Source of the DNA: Eledone cirrhosa
Taxonomy: Eukaryota
Assembly (NCBI GenBank): GCA_964016885.1
Contig: OZ024742.1
Span: forward strand, 26,040,001 to 26,104,000
Direction of reading: 5' to 3'
Length of the DNA: 64,000 bases
Numbering within the stretch: position 1 is the stretch's first letter; each line of letters begins with the position of its first letter. A program made the position numbers and the translations under genes. The notes beneath the pieces were generated by a model. That model was not told where the DNA came from, did no database searches, and saw only the letters and a program-made list of their open reading frames with translations. Positions 1,245-54,578 of this stretch are shown one piece after another.

Positions 1245-1433
1245 AACGAAGGAAAAGTGGTAAGGAACCAGGTGGACCATAACGCACCAAAGTACTCAAT
1301 ACTTGAGGTAGTAGAGTGGGTAATAGGAACCAGTAAGACCCCGACAGCTGAGCTCAAGCCGTCTCGACGGCTAATTCAGTCCAGAATTAGCCGTCGAAAC
1401 GGCTTGAGCTCAGCTGTCGGGGTCTTACTGGTT

Positions 1434-1437
<4 letters not shown>
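1245..1437 (-). mobile_element. Family A fold-back mini-element, copy 1
   Basis: Asymmetric palindrome centred at ~1380 between (TA)n tracts; carries the HHR 3' half GAAACGGCTTGAGCTCAGCYGTC-GGGG. Confidence 0.9.
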
Positions 1438-1480
<43 letters not shown>

Positions 1481-3735: not shown

Positions 3736-3745
3736 TATATATATA

Positions 3746-3871
3746 TAGGAAAATGTTTAAGAGCATTGCCGTCGGAGTTTTGAACATTTTCCTATTACCC
3801 AATCTACTACACTAAGTATTGAGTACTCAGGTGCGTTATGGTCCACCTGGTTCCTTACCACACTTCCTTCG

Positions 3872-3873
<2 letters not shown>
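3746..3873 (+). mobile_element. Family A mini-element, copy 2 (internally deleted)
   Basis: Short arm taggaaaatgtt; long arm ...cctattaccc...ttgagtactc...ttccttcgtt(TA)n. Confidence 0.85.
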
Positions 3874-4538: not shown

Positions 4539-4915
<377 letters not shown>

Positions 4916-13570: not shown

Positions 13571-13607
<37 letters not shown>

Positions 13608-13611
<4 letters not shown>

Positions 13612-13803
13612 AACAGGTATGTCCCCGACGGCAGAGCTCAAGCCGTTTCGACGGCTATTTCTAGACTCCAGAAATAGACGTCGAAATGGCTTCAGCTCTG
13701 CCGTCGGGGTCATATTTGTTCCTATTACCCACTCCACTACCCTAAGTATTGAGTACTTTGGTGCGTTATGGTCCATCTGGTTCCTTACCACAATTCCTTC
13801 GTT
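13608..13803 (+). mobile_element. Family A mini-element, copy 4
   Basis: Palindrome centred at ~13665; (TA)n on both sides. Confidence 0.9.
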
Positions 13804-26008: not shown

Positions 26009-26209
26009 AACAAAGGAAATGTTGTAAGGAAACAGATGGCCCATAACGCACCAGAGTACTCAATATTTAGGGTAGTAGAGTGGGTAATAGGAAAATGTTT
26101 AACCCCGACGGCAGAGCTGAGGCCGTTTCGACGGCTATTTCTGGAAAAGAAATAGCCAGAAATAGTAGTCGAAACGACGTGAGCTCTGCCGTCGGGGTTA
26201 AACATTTTC
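26009..26209 (-). mobile_element. Family A mini-element, copy 5
   Basis: Palindrome centred at ~26150 with a small duplication at the axis; TA-flanked. Confidence 0.9.
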
Positions 26210-26239
26210 ATATATATATATATTGATATATATATATTC

Positions 26240-26724: not shown

Positions 26725-26750
26725 TGTATATATATATATATATATATATA

Positions 26751-26806
26751 TAGGAACCAGTAAGACCCCGACGGCTGAGCTCAAGCCGTTTCGACGGCTA
26801 ATTCTG
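26751..26806 (-). mobile_element. Family A, copy 6 (short arm only)
   Basis: taggaaccagtaagaccccgacggctgagctcaagccgtttcgacggctaattctgg. Confidence 0.85.
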
Positions 26807-26865
26807 GGTGTATGTGTGTGTATGTCTGTATATATATATATATATACACACATACATACACACAC

Positions 26866-40889: not shown

Positions 40890-41508
40890 AGTAATAATAA
40901 TAAATTTGAAGACTAAAATCCAAAGAGGGCTCGATAAGGATAAATATATATCAAATATATAAGAACCGTAGAGCAAATATTTATTAAAATAACAGATTAA
41001 AGTTTAAACAAAGAATCGCTGCTTTCACCCTTAACGGGATCTTCTGAAACTAACAAAGCCAATCTGTAAAATGGTATAGTTGAAGTCGTAATCTACGACT
41101 TCAGCTATACCATTTACGTGGTTTTGTCTTTGCGTGCTATTGTTCTCCACGCTCCGCATATGACATATTATCTTTGTTTTTTCCGTTCATTTCCAGAGAA
41201 CGTCTCTATGAACCACCTAAGACAACATTAGTCTACGACTTCTTTAATACCATAAACGTGGTTCTGTCTTTGCGCGTAATTGTTTTTCACCGCTCCTATT
41301 AATGACGTATACTATTCGTTTTTTCCCGTTCTTTGCCAGGGAACGTTTCCACGAACCAAAGTATCGTCTTCCTGTCTTCCTCCGGTTGCAACGTTTTTTT
41401 AAATATCCACTTCTGCGTTTACAGATTGACTTTGTTAGTTTCAGAAGATCCCGTTAAGGGTGAAAGCAGCGATTCTTTGCTTAAACTTTAATCTGTTATT
41501 TTAATAAA
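40890..41508. mobile_element. Family F PLE terminal fold-back unit
   Basis: Minus-strand 3' end at 40890-41070; plus-strand 3' UTR at 41091-41508 with two ~135-bp sub-repeats; TA-flanked. Confidence 0.9.
41437..41487 (+). ncRNA. HHR-like motif with a CAGAAGA core (5 copies in the F cluster)
   Basis: AGTTT-CAGAAGA-T-CCC-gttaa-GGG-T-GAAA-GCAG..TTGC-TT-AAACT; also at ~41001-41051(-), 43711-43742(+, truncated), 43927-43977(-) and 45677-45727(+). Confidence 0.6.
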
Positions 41509-41523
41509 TATATATATATATAT

Positions 41524-45745: not shown

Positions 45746-45816
<71 letters not shown>

Positions 45817-45820
<4 letters not shown>

Positions 45821-46005
45821 AAAAAGTATAACCCCGATGGCAGAGCTCAAGCCGTTTCGACGGCTATTTCTGGACTAAATTAGAATGTTTAGCTTGGTGG
45901 TAAGCACCAGGTCATACTTTTTCCTATTTCCCACTCTACTACCCTAAGTATTGAGTACTCTGGTGCGTTATGGTCCATCTGGTCCCTTACCACAATTCCT
46001 TTGTT
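45817..46005 (+). mobile_element. Family A mini-element, copy 7
   Basis: Short arm taggaaaaagtataacccc...gacggctatttctggact, ~30-nt filler, long tail to cctttgtt(TA)n. Confidence 0.88.
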
Positions 46006-52921: not shown

Positions 52922-53665
52922 GAAACACACAGATACATGCCGACGCACACATATATACATGAACGCATCCGCACCCAACTGTGAGTTAAGGGTGCCAACT
53001 TCACCGATGTTGCTCAATGAATGACTGGGACAGACCAATTCAGTTTGAACTAGACTGAACCAGTATCAGAGTTAAAAATACATTATGAAGAGAGAAGAAA
53101 CATTTAGATATAATTAGTAATAAAATGTATCATACCTAAACTGTTCCTAAATTCCTCGACTACGTAGTTTCGTGGCATAAACAAAAACAATATATCAAAG
53201 ATATAGAGTCCTTGCGAGGTCTGCCGACTTATCAAGAGGATACCTCATTTTACTAGTCTCAAGAACGCGTCTACACGACGTGAGAAAGAATCCCAAAAGG
53301 CGGAGGGGGAGATAGTCACGCGATATAACGGTCGAGAAACCGAGCTAAGCCTCTTATAACCACGAAGAAAATACCACGGAGGCGGAGGGGGTATTCATAT
53401 CGAGGCCGTAGAAGAGGTAGTGAAGAAGGCGAGAAGTATGAGTAATGGAAGCTTTCCAGTTGTCCCCACGTCGTGTAGACGCGTTCTTGAGACTAGTAAA
53501 ATGAGGTATCCTCTTGATAAGTCGGCAGACCTCGCAAGGACTCTATATCTTTGATATATTGTTTTTGTTTATGCCACGAAACTACGTAGTCGAGGAATTT
53601 AGGAACAGTTTAGGTATGATACATTTTATTACTAATTATATCTAAATGTTTCTTCTCTCTTCATA

Positions 53666-53670
<5 letters not shown>
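52918..53670 (-). mobile_element. Family G fold-back element (very young)
   Basis: 204-bp arms 53079-53282 and 53467-53670 with no difference I could see; 184-bp spacer; unpaired tail 52918-53078; TA-flanked. Confidence 0.95.
53509..53596 (+). ncRNA. Type I HHR motif with a U3-A8 covariant core (mirror at 53153-53240 -)
   Basis: TCCTC-TTGATAA-GT(C)GGCA[44 nt]TGCCAC-GAAAC-TACGTA-GTC-GAGGA. Confidence 0.78.

Positions 53671-53715
<45 letters not shown>

Positions 53716-54266: not shown

Positions 54267-54578
<312 letters not shown>

What the first reader, a model, noticed from the sequence alone, without database searches (positions are those of the whole stretch)
1340..1422. The family A palindrome axis coincides with the inferred HHR stem II; the CUGANGA half is missing in all seven copies
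Seen: GTC-GAAACGGC(N9)GCYGTC-GGGG is a well-formed GAAA-stem III-GUC half. Upstream of it, copies fold back at or break within GACGGCTAWTTC-loop-GAAWTAGCCGTC (axes ~1380, 4740, 13665, 26150; copies 6 and 7 stop in the same stem; copy 2 is deleted further). Variants next to GGGG differ between loci but largely match between the two arms of each locus, implying independent fold-back events. Inference: cDNA self-primes on the ribozyme's own stem II hairpin, generating a palindrome and removing the catalytic 5' half each time.
Basis: partly seen in the sequence, partly recalled or inferred. Interest (0 to 1): 0.75.

Follow-up and report, generated by a model that had tools for sequence, protein, structure and literature searches.

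The report
Mirror-image Penelope retroelement stumps
These small DNA palindromes are cut-down, mirror-image insertions of a known kind of jumping gene (a Penelope-like element) in TA repeats; thousands of longer copies elsewhere in the genome carry the complete self-cutting RNA motif, and the short copies likely lack its first half because the copied RNA starts inside the motif.

Summary
Seven family A copies in the window carry GAAA-stem-GUC-GGGG, mostly as palindromes, and none has a CUGANGA-type half.

Family A is the 3' end of the pseudo-LTR of a Hydra-clade Penelope-like element (PLE). A full copy (pLTR-ORF-pLTR) lies 210 kb away.

It folds as a three-way hammerhead with a U3/A8 core.

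The palindromes are made anew at each insertion, but self-priming on stem II does not fit:
- In 52 of 57 head-to-head events, one arm ends at ..GTTCCTAT and the other 78 nt further at ..CCTTCGTT.
- In 7 of 57 events the arms do not overlap.
- This matches the known PLE layout: an inverted copy plus a 'tail' at one end.

Inner ends cluster (92 of 152) in loop 2, 29 nt downstream of a TATA-like box, so this is likely the RNA's 5' end. A sharp minor class of ends at G43, the predicted cleavage site, hints at ribozyme activity in vivo.

Verdict: a known kind of element, with useful mechanistic detail.

The parts
1245..1377 (-). Copy 1, long arm. Covers q8-q140: 3' strand of stem II, GAAA, helix III, GUC|GGGG, variable segment and 78-nt 'tail'. 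Ends in (TA)n.
   Evidence: blastn against the reference unit and the L039 pLTR; sequence read.
1374..1438 (+). Copy 1, short arm. Covers q-2 to q62 and ends ..GTTCCTAT next to (TA)n. The finding's GAAACGGC..GTCGGGG is at 1396-1422.
3745..3760 (-). Copy 2, remnant of the short arm (q62 back to about q47), next to (TA)n.
   Evidence: sequence printed; listing
3767..3873 (+). Copy 2, long arm, truncated at about q36.
4683..4737 (-). Copy 3, short arm (q62 to q8).
4744..4870 (+). Copy 3, long arm (q14-q140).
13607..13667 (-). Copy 4, short arm (q62 to q2).
13667..13803 (+). Copy 4, long arm. This copy defines the coordinates used in the report: q = window position - 13663.
26009..26145 (-). Copy 5, long arm (q4-q140).
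26156..26215 (+). Copy 5, short arm. The centre carries an extra partial repeat.
26750..26807 (-). Copy 6, short arm only (q62 to q5). It is followed by GT/TA microsatellite.
45816..45898 (-). Copy 7, short arm that runs on past q2 into the parental loop 2 (to about q-18).
   Evidence: compared with parental copies
45910..46005 (+). Copy 7, long arm. It starts at about q45, 2 nt from the predicted ribozyme cleavage site.

Best explanation
Family A copies are short, 5'-truncated, head-to-head insertions of the 3' end of the pseudo-LTR of a Hydra-clade Penelope-like retrotransposon into (TA)n microsatellites; they lack the ribozyme's first half most likely because the copied RNA begins inside loop 2 of the hammerhead, not because cDNA folded back on stem II.

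Shown:
- The pLTR of full and long copies holds a complete hammerhead-shaped motif: helix I ACCCC/GGGGU, core YUGANAA, stem II with a 31-33-nt loop, GAAA, helix III with a GAGCUC loop, then GUC|GGGG.
- Every insertion arm has one of two fixed 3' ends, q62 (..GTTCCTAT) or q140 (..CCTTCGTT). Both abut (TA)n.
- Head-to-head events pair one arm of each kind.
- The 5' ends vary, with a main cluster at q-5..q8 and a sharp minor class at G43.

Inferred:
- The two cut ends of the target each prime reverse transcription, one at each start site and probably on the same RNA.
- Both cDNAs run off at the RNA's 5' end and are then joined. The palindrome axis therefore marks the RNA's 5' end.
- That end is likely a transcription start. 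It lies 29 nt downstream of a TATA-like TATTTAAATA in loop 2, at an initiator-like TTAGTCC/TCAGTC.
- Transcripts that start there carry only the 3' half of that ribozyme.
- Arms starting at G43 would be copies of RNA that the complete downstream ribozyme had cut.
For: PLE identity:
- L039 holds a 474-bp direct repeat (99% identical) that ends in family A and flanks an ORF.
- The ORF aligns to the RT of a PLE from this genome at E=1e-6 and has 251 relatives of about 700 aa.
- Its translation and three relatives show DKT, RW[R/K] and CxCX5C, followed by VIY..YIG-type motifs. These are the traits listed for Hydra, as is insertion into (TA)n.
- 141 of 150 arm ends abut (TA)>=4, against 9.6% of random background windows.

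Parent hammerhead:
- 6,006 and 5,374 matches to the two parent patterns.
- In the first 100 cores, U4 and A6 are 100/100, G5 99/100, A8 and A9 100/100. N7 is G 71, U 13, A 11, C 5. Position 3 is U in 75 and C in 25.
- The unconstrained MFE of L039 q-52..q66 is the three-way hammerhead fold at -27.5 kcal/mol. The consensus fold of 28 copies is the same.

Two-armed insertion:
- Outer ends are q62 in 57 arms and q140-145 in 74 arms, of 155.
- 52 of 57 events are q62+q140 and 7 of 57 do not overlap.
- Arms match in 34 of 39 events.

RNA 5' end:
- 92 of 152 inner ends lie at q-5..q8.
- In 5 places, forward segments begin at q-1..q3 yet run 115-831 nt past q140 into the ORF. One is a tandem of three units, each restarting at q-1.

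G43 class:
- 1,966 matches have GGGG not preceded by C. By eye, about 66 of the first 100 are true junctions, and 34 of those rows are CCCC-(0-5 nt)-GGGG mini-palindromes.
- For a start at q44 there are 939 matches, about a quarter of them junctions.
- For a start at q42 there are 361 matches, and in most the C belongs to the partner arm.

Literature:
- PAc cuts and extends both strands from two internal start sites, and the 'tail' lies between them (PMC11167929, main text read).
- An inverted copy and a tail at one end are typical of PLEs (PMC8557442, passages).
- A U3-A8 core is known in Cercyon PLEs (PMC4209133, passages).
Against: - No RNA data could be obtained. The transcription start, the strand and the cleavage are inferred from DNA only.
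- Rfam hammerhead models do not match the parent even at E<=10.
- A8 replaces the canonical G8 in 100 of 100 cores. 25 of 100 have C3 with A8, which is a mismatch.
- None of the 15 predicted pairs shows a compensatory change.
- Copies are related by descent, so core conservation reflects a few lineages.
- Pfam finds neither RVT_1 nor GIY-YIG in the ORF. BLASTP of its C-terminus to another PLE's endonuclease gives only E=0.51. The endonuclease and the Hydra motifs were read by eye.
- Inner ends spread over about 14 nt with several peaks, and blastn or suffix matching fixes them only to a few nt.
- 60 of the loci were picked from exact 22-mer hits, which favours young copies.
- The rows were sorted by eye. 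Runs of G make some junctions ambiguous by 1-2 nt.
- The 'tail' here is 78 nt, against 30-40 bp in the literature.
Confidence: 0.8

Rival explanations
1. First-strand cDNA copies through the ribozyme's stem II hairpin, snaps back on itself and self-primes. This makes a palindrome and discards the catalytic 5' half at each insertion.
For: - The axis lies at stem II of the parental motif in most copies: 92 of 152 inner ends at q-5..q8.
- Arms share locus-specific variants.
- A parent with the core exists.
Against: - In 7 of 57 events the arms do not overlap.
- The inverted arm always stops at q62 instead of running on along the forward arm to q140. In 52 of 57 events one arm ends at q62 and the other at q140, and q62 is the commonest single outer end (57 of 155 arms).
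- q62 is also the 3' end of 18 partnerless arms and of 14 of 30 long copies.
- Arms ending at the mode contain no parental 5' strand of stem II (G[ACT]TCGGCTAT), which hairpin priming would need.
- Segments starting at q-1..q3 also occur in tandem and with long 3' extensions. That fits an RNA end, not a snap-back.
Confidence: 0.06
2. The insertion layout is the same two-armed one, but the clustered 5' ends are places where reverse transcriptase stalls or jumps at RNA structure rather than true RNA ends. The stall points would be the foot of stem II for q2 and the foot of helix III for q43.
For: - Both clusters sit at helix boundaries of the predicted fold.
- No RNA evidence was available.
- PAc hammerhead mutants did not change insertion products in vitro, and no RNA-seq reads began at that element's cleavage site (PMC11167929).
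Against: - At q2 the enzyme has already copied the whole 3' strand of stem II, so the helix is open.
- A stall at the foot of helix III should leave ends at q42 or q43-44 alike. Yet junctions at q43 outnumber those at q44 by about 5 to 1, and those at q42 by more.
- A TATA-like box at the canonical 29-31 nt and an initiator-like motif sit at q2.
- Tandem units restart at q-1.
Confidence: 0.12
3. Family A is a DNA-level foldback element or MITE. On this view its palindrome is ancestral, serves as terminal inverted repeats, and the hammerhead likeness is chance.
For: - There are tens of thousands of short palindromic copies.
- Some identical centres recur at several loci.
Against: - The two termini are not inverted repeats of each other (q62 end versus q140 end).
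- Junctions differ between copies of one subfamily.
- Arms occur singly and as the ends of kb-long copies with an RT ORF.
- The same junction type recurs across different subfamilies, which argues against simple inheritance.
Confidence: 0.02

Closest known systems
Hydra clade of Penelope-like elements (Craig et al. 2021, PMC8557442; section 11 and passages read)
   Same: [quoted passage not shown]
- DKT in place of DKG, an RW[K/R] motif and a CxCX5C linker.
- Insertion into (TA)n.
- pLTRs, partial tandems and an inverted copy at the 5' end.
- An extension ('tail') at one end only.
- A ribozyme motif near the 3' end.
   Different: - The unit here is about 3.5 kb, against 'generally <3 kb'.
- The hammerhead core is YUGANAA, not canonical, and is missed by Rfam.
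- The tail is 78 nt rather than 30-40 bp.
- Ultra-short two-armed stumps are very numerous: 54,367 exact 22-mers.
- Clade placement rests on motifs read by eye. No tree was built.
Hammerhead ribozymes of PLE pLTRs (Cervera & de la Pena 2014, PMC4209133; passages read)
   Same: - Type I topology within the pLTR.
- G10.1-C11.1 pair with an irregular base of helix II.
- Palindromic loop 3 (GAGCUC).
- U3-A8 instead of C3-G8, as reported for Cercyon elements of Schistosoma.
- Paired motifs on opposite strands 100-700 bp apart.
   Different: - Helix III is a stable 5-bp stem with a 9-nt loop, not the 1-2 bp minimal form.
- Loop 2 is 31-33 nt and holds a TATA-like box.
- A quarter of copies have C3 with A8.
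Two-strand, internally initiated reverse transcription of the Anolis PLE PAc in vitro (Frangieh et al. 2024, PMC11167929; main text read)
   Same: - Two reverse-transcription start sites inside the RNA, with the 'tail' as the stretch between them.
- Both target strands are cut and extended.
- AT-rich targets.
- Uncut RNA is the main template.
- One tandem here restarts after an AC-rich stretch at the start of the ORF. PAc likewise starts in an AC-rich stem-loop.
   Different: - The evidence here is genomic only.
- The start sites are 78 nt apart.
- Both sit at UAU, which could pair with the (TA)n primer. PAc starts at a site with no homology to the cut DNA.
- In this genome one site is used per DNA end (52 of 57 events).
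Twin priming of LINE-1 (Ostertag & Kazazian 2001; recalled, not read here)
   Same: A second target 3' end primes on the same RNA at an internal site, giving an inverted 5' part joined to the 3' part.
   Different: - In L1 the internal priming site is variable and the result is an inversion, not a palindrome.
- Here the internal site is fixed and both cDNAs reach the RNA's 5' end.
Animal non-LTR retrozymes (bioRxiv 10.64898/2026.07.22.740005; abstract only)
   Same: Short non-coding sequences derived from PLE pLTRs, with hammerhead sequence, and present in high copy number.
   Different: - Retrozymes are tandem units with complete ribozymes that can circularise.
- Family A stumps hold only the 3' half, as inverted pairs.

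Membership tests
Hammerhead ribozyme (type I) | Three helices around a junction, with single strands of 7 nt, 3 nt (GAA) and 1 nt (H17) | tested here: met
   The unconstrained MFE of L039 q-52..q66 has exactly this layout at -27.5 kcal/mol. The RNAalifold consensus of 28 distinct copies gives helices I, II and III. This holds for the parent only. The window's copies lack the 5' half.
Hammerhead ribozyme (type I) | Conserved GAAA box and a U-H cleavage triplet after helix III | tested here: met
   GAAA and GUC|G are seen in window copies and in 27 of 28 aligned parents. The GAAAC box was required by the search pattern that picked the parents.
Hammerhead ribozyme (type I) | Core CUGANGA, with the C3-G8 pair | tested here: not met
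   The core is YUGANAA. A8 is 100/100 and position 3 is U in 75 and C in 25 of the first 100 of 6,006 matches. U3-A8 is a covariation reported for Cercyon PLE hammerheads (PMC4209133). C3 with A8 is a mismatch.
Hammerhead ribozyme (type I) | Match to curated covariance models (Rfam hammerhead families) | tested here: not met
   No hit at E<=10 on L039:1120-1300. No hit at gathering score in the window.
Hammerhead ribozyme (type I) | Self-cleavage 3' of H17 | tested here: inconclusive
   The evidence is indirect. Insertion arms start at G43 far more often than at q42 or q44: 1,966, 361 and 939 matches, with about 66%, few, and about 25% true junctions by eye. No RNA or bench data.
Hammerhead ribozyme (type I) | Helices supported by compensatory changes | tested here: inconclusive
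   0 of 15 predicted pairs show a change on both sides. The helices are almost invariant within this genome.
Penelope-like elements, Hydra clade | One ORF with a PLE-type RT followed by a GIY-YIG endonuclease | tested here: inconclusive
   - The RT part aligns to a PLE RT of this genome (25% identity over 222 aa, E=1e-6). That partner has an RVT_1 hit and a PF01541 hit.
- 251 relatives of about 700 aa were found.
- The endonuclease motifs (VI-stop-QC..AYIGLT.., CNLC) were read by eye in L039 and in P0003, P0009 and P0012.
- Pfam gives no hit, and BLASTP of the C-terminus gives E=0.51.
- The L039 copy has in-frame stops.
Penelope-like elements, Hydra clade | Pseudo-LTRs from partial tandem insertion | tested here: met
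   A 474-bp direct repeat, 98.9% identical, flanks the ORF in L039.
Penelope-like elements, Hydra clade | Hydra motifs: DKT, RWK and a CxCX5C linker (Craig 2021, section 11) | tested here: met
   Seen in the translations, by eye and with no profile or tree: SDKTGNLY, RLRWRTFF and CNCPDRSIC in L039. DKTRNLY and MRW[R/K]AFFF appear in the relatives.
Penelope-like elements, Hydra clade | Insertion into (TA)n | tested here: met
   141 of 150 arm outer ends abut (TA)>=4, against 9.6% of random 31-nt windows. 50 of 57 events have it on both sides.
Penelope-like elements, Hydra clade | Inverted copy at the 5' end, and an extension ('tail') at one end only | tested here: met
   There are 57 head-to-head events. 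52 pair an arm ending at q62 with an arm ending at q140.
Self-primed (snap-back) cDNA palindrome | The inverted arm is templated by, and so contained in, the adjacent arm | tested here: not met
   7 of 57 events have non-overlapping arms. Several others have an inverted arm that reaches further 5' than the forward arm, for example window 45816-46005.
MITE / foldback DNA transposon | Both termini are inverted repeats of each other | tested here: not met
   The termini are q62 (..GTTCCTAT) and q140 (..CCTTCGTT). The inverted repeat is internal on one side.
Retrozyme | Units each bearing a complete ribozyme, in tandem | tested here: not met
   Window copies lack the 5' half. The tandem seen in L172 restarts at q-1, inside the motif.

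The most novel reading that the evidence does not exclude
The element's promoter sits inside loop 2 of its own hammerhead. Every pLTR-initiated transcript therefore carries a disabled ribozyme at its 5' end and an intact one at its 3' end. The roughly 1,300 genomic junctions that start exactly at G43 are then a fossil record showing that this U3-A8 hammerhead cuts in vivo. They would also show that the cut-off 3' fragment is still reverse transcribed from both target strands, one fixed start site per strand.
Probability: 0.45. Interest if true: 0.6.

Novelty: new member of a known kind. Interest (0 to 1): 0.4.

Why it matters
The finding itself turns out to be ordinary. It is the usual footprint of a Penelope-like element in a TA microsatellite.

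The value lies in what this very abundant, young family records:
- **Two start sites in vivo.** Tens of thousands of insertions show the two reverse-transcription start sites, used one per DNA end. So far this rests on one in vitro study of a lizard element.
- **Role of the hammerhead.** The function of PLE hammerheads is an open question. Here insertion ends pile up at the predicted cleavage site in about 2% of arms, while most templates are uncut. That would fit a ribozyme that is active but dispensable, and it gives a simple genomic read-out that can be applied to other PLE families.
- **A testable link.** A promoter-like box inside loop 2 would explain why the commonest copies never carry a whole ribozyme.

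Tried and rejected
1. Genome patterns with a canonical core (YTGANGA next to GACGGCTAWTTC; CTGANGA within 40 nt of GCCGTCGAAACGGC) gave only chance hits. These were a coding repeat, CTGAWGA inside palindrome centres, and degenerate left arms. The parent escaped because it has A8 and GNTCGGCTA.
2. Rfam in E-value mode was swamped by microsatellite look-alikes of miRNA families. No hammerhead appeared among the rows listed.
3. No tRNA-like origin was found: ARAGORN reports 0 genes.
4. PLEs found through PF01541 belong to other families. None carries family A at its 3' end. One family A copy in L077 lies apart from the ORF.
5. Pfam on the ORF and on four relatives gave nothing.
6. Public RNA runs could not be reached. 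Expression, strand and RNA ends remain untested.
7. One search found nothing because I set the gap one base too long. One search corrected it. Its leading V also excludes the parental context, so no ratio of parental to truncated upstream ends was obtained.
8. A recurrent upstream '..CACTGAGGAACTG' next to truncated arms (L011, L021) was considered as a possible parent and rejected. It is the 5' end of a different ~215-nt repeat joined head to head.
9. Earlier notes of this scan were looked up only after my reading was formed.

Full report
**Coordinates.** I number the repeat by copy 4 of the window, with q = window position - 13663. On this scale:
- q2 is the A of ..TTAG-TCCAG.
- q9-19 is the 3' strand of stem II.
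- q20-23 is GAAA.
- q23-41 is helix III.
- C42|G43 is the predicted cleavage site.
- q47-56 is a variable segment.
- q62 is the end of ..GTTCCTAT.
- q140 is the end of ..CCTTCGTT.

In the finding's copy, the + strand arm follows window = 1376 + q and the - strand arm follows window = 1385 - q.

**1. The observation.** The window is AT-rich and crowded with (TA)n. The motif GAAACGGC-N9-GCYGTC occurs 10 times, against 0.10 expected from shuffles.

Reading the loci gives seven copies. Four are near-perfect palindromes, one is a single arm, and two have partly deleted or odd centres. Every copy lies in (TA)n.

None has a CUGANGA- or YTGANAA-type core, and Rfam reports no hammerhead. The segment next to GGGG differs between loci but matches between the arms of a locus. 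It could be read in both arms in 39 of 57 events. In 34 of those 39 the arms differ by at most 1, against 22% of cross-locus pairs.

**2. What the repeat is.** The 22-mer GCCGTCGAAACGGCTTGAGCTC occurs 54,367 times in the 3.0-Gb genome.

I sampled the window plus the next 400 kb and 60 loci around the first listed 22-mer hits. Many copies continue 5' of q2 into a conserved sequence..GGAATTACCCC-TTGAGAA-G[A/C/T]TCGGCTATTTAAATACC..TTTAG-TCCAGAATTAGCCGTC-GAAA-..

One such copy (L039, 210 kb from the window) is a full element:
- It has a 474-bp direct repeat (98.9% identical) that ends in family A and flanks an ORF.
- The ORF aligns to the RT of another PLE of this genome (E=1e-6) and has 251 relatives of about 700 aa.
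- Its translation and three relatives show DKT, RW[R/K] and a CxCX5C linker. VIY..YIGxT, CxxC and CxH motifs follow.
- These are the traits that Craig et al. 2021 list for their Hydra clade, together with insertion into (TA)n (section 11).
- The L039 copy has in-frame stops.
- Pfam sees no domain. The endonuclease and the clade therefore rest on motifs read by eye and on one pairwise alignment.

141 of 150 arm ends abut (TA)>=4, against 9.6% of random background windows.

**3. The parent hammerhead.** My first searches fixed G8 and the mirrored stem, and found only chance hits. The real parent is CCCC-YTGANAA-GNTCGGCTA.
- TACCCC-N7-GNTCGGCTAT has 6,006 matches.
- The pattern running from the core through stem II to GAAAC has 5,374 matches.
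- Among the first 100 cores, U4 and A6 are 100/100, G5 99/100, and A8 and A9 100/100.
- N7 takes all four bases (G 71, U 13, A 11, C 5). Position 3 is U in 75 and C in 25.
- The unconstrained fold of q-52..q66 is a three-way junction with 7-, 3- and 1-nt single strands in the hammerhead places, at -27.5 kcal/mol. The consensus fold of 28 distinct copies agrees.

Against membership:
- Rfam models do not match.
- G8 is replaced by A.
- No pair shows a compensatory change.

U3-A8 in place of C3-G8 is reported for Cercyon PLE hammerheads. So are the irregular base of helix II and palindromic loops 3 (Cervera & de la Pena 2014, passages).

**4. How the palindromes arise.** I mapped 155 arms onto the pLTR.
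- Outer ends fall into two sharp classes: q62 (57 arms) and q140-145 (74 arms).
- Of 57 head-to-head events, 52 pair one q62 arm with one q140 arm. None is 62+62 or 140+140. Seven have arms that share no sequence.
- q62 is also the end of 18 unpaired arms.
- Of 30 long copies, 14 end at q62 and 13 at q140 (by eye).

A snap-back cDNA cannot give non-overlapping arms. It also has no reason to stop at q62. And it would have to copy the parental 5' strand of stem II first, which the modal arms lack.

The data fit what is known of PLEs:
- An inverted copy lies next to the 5' end, and an extension is present at one end only (Craig 2021).
- The purified Anolis enzyme cuts and extends both target strands and starts inside the RNA at two sites. 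The 'tail' lies between them (Frangieh 2024).

I infer the following sequence of events:
1. Each cut end of the (TA)n target primes at one of two UAU-containing sites, q59-61 or q140-142.
2. Priming is probably on one RNA, since the arms share rare variants.
3. Both cDNAs run to the RNA's 5' end.
4. The two ends are joined with 0-13 extra nucleotides.

**5. Why the axis is where it is.** Of 152 arms with the q12-23 anchor, 92 end at q-5..q8. Sixteen run at least 48 nt further, 9 end between, and 35 end at q9-12.
- This spot is the 3' side of loop 2.
- Loop 2 begins with TATTTAAATA (variants TATTTATTCA, TATTCATATA, TATTCAAATA), 29-31 nt upstream of TTAGTCC/TCAGTC, whose A is q2.
- In five places, forward segments start at q-1..q3 yet continue 115-831 nt past q140 into the ORF. 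In L172, three units follow each other, each restarting at q-1.
- These point to an RNA species that begins at about q2 and reads into the ORF, that is, a transcript started in the pLTR. A pLTR promoter is assumed or known for other PLEs (passages citing Schostak 2008, which I did not read).
- Such RNA carries only the 3' half of that hammerhead. This would explain why the run-off copies never hold the core.
- This step is inferred. RNA data could not be obtained.

**6. A mark of cleavage.** Three patterns compare neighbouring start positions.
- GGGG not preceded by C has 1,966 matches. By eye, about 66 of the first 100 are true junctions at G43. That includes 34 rows (about 21 loci) of CCCC-(0-5 nt)-GGGG mini-palindromes and 15 rows where flank or (TA)n meets G43 directly. 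The other 34 rows are parental variants, 27 of them with a fifth G.
- A start at q44 has 939 matches, about a quarter of them junctions.
- A start at q42 has 361 matches. In most of these the C belongs to the partner arm, so many are again G43 starts.

That makes roughly 1,300 junction rows at G43, about 2% of arms. The ratio is about 5 to 1 over q44 and higher over q42. A stall at the foot of helix III would be expected at q42 as much as at q43. Cleavage 3' of C42 predicts G43 exactly. I take this as indirect support for activity in vivo. Uncut RNA remains the main template, as found for PAc in vitro.

**7. Verdict.** The palindromes are ordinary PLE stumps. Other agents' notes on this genome, seen after my analysis, say the same.
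- Its prediction of a parent with a YTGANRA core is borne out.
- Its mechanism is replaced by two-strand priming and run-off at an RNA end.
- Three points are new for this family and remain to be tested on RNA: the strict one-site-per-end rule, the promoter-like box inside loop 2, and the G43 class.

Noticed in passing
L011:1285-1510 and L021:1290-1530 (also four more matches): A different ~215-nt repeat ending ..TTCACTGAGGAACTG is joined head to head to 5'-truncated family A long arms at varying points. One match shows this repeat's own end folded into a small palindrome. It looks like two-armed insertions that used two different RNAs.
   Followed up: partly
L172:1438-2164 (G000:C1:27009447-27010173): Three tandem units lie behind an inverted short arm. 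Each of the first two runs from q-1 through q140 to 115 nt beyond, and the third ends at q145. The units end after an AC-rich stretch at the start of the ORF (..GAAAACACAACATCGAC). This recalls the AC-rich start site of the Anolis PLE.
   Followed up: partly
L077:4000-4300 (- strand), L078, L081; and G000:C3:248802734 (L141): Another PLE family with a C-terminal endonuclease has a minimal hammerhead-like string (CTGAAGA-TTGCGAAAGCA-TGAAA-GTAC) in its 3' UTR. One genomic place joins the first part of that string directly to family A at q3. I read the motif by eye only.
   Followed up: no
window 53073-53282 / 53467-53676; 2390-2535 / 2571-2716; 40977-41070 / 41418-41511; 54435-54576: Other long, 96-99% inverted repeats are present in the window. 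They may be stumps of other PLE families or other elements.
   Followed up: no
q44-68 and q105-128 of the unit (window 13707-13731 and 13768-13791): There is an internal direct repeat, GGTC...CTGGTTCCT.TACC.AC. One copy lies just before each of the two fixed 3' ends. It might be a doubled binding site for the reverse transcriptase.
   Followed up: no
L079:2349-5364: Two 551-aa RT ORFs of another PLE family lie head to head and overlap at their 5' ends. This is the same inverted layout at kb scale.
   Followed up: no
genome-wide: A variant with five G after GTC (GTCGGGGG) is common. It accounts for 27 of the first 100 rows, mostly (17 of 27) in the TCATACTT subfamily.
   Followed up: no
window, whole: Rfam E-value scans give hundreds of below-threshold 'miRNA' matches (mir-297, mir-3149, mir-1277). 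They are (TA)n/(CA)n microsatellite and are not genes.
   Followed up: yes
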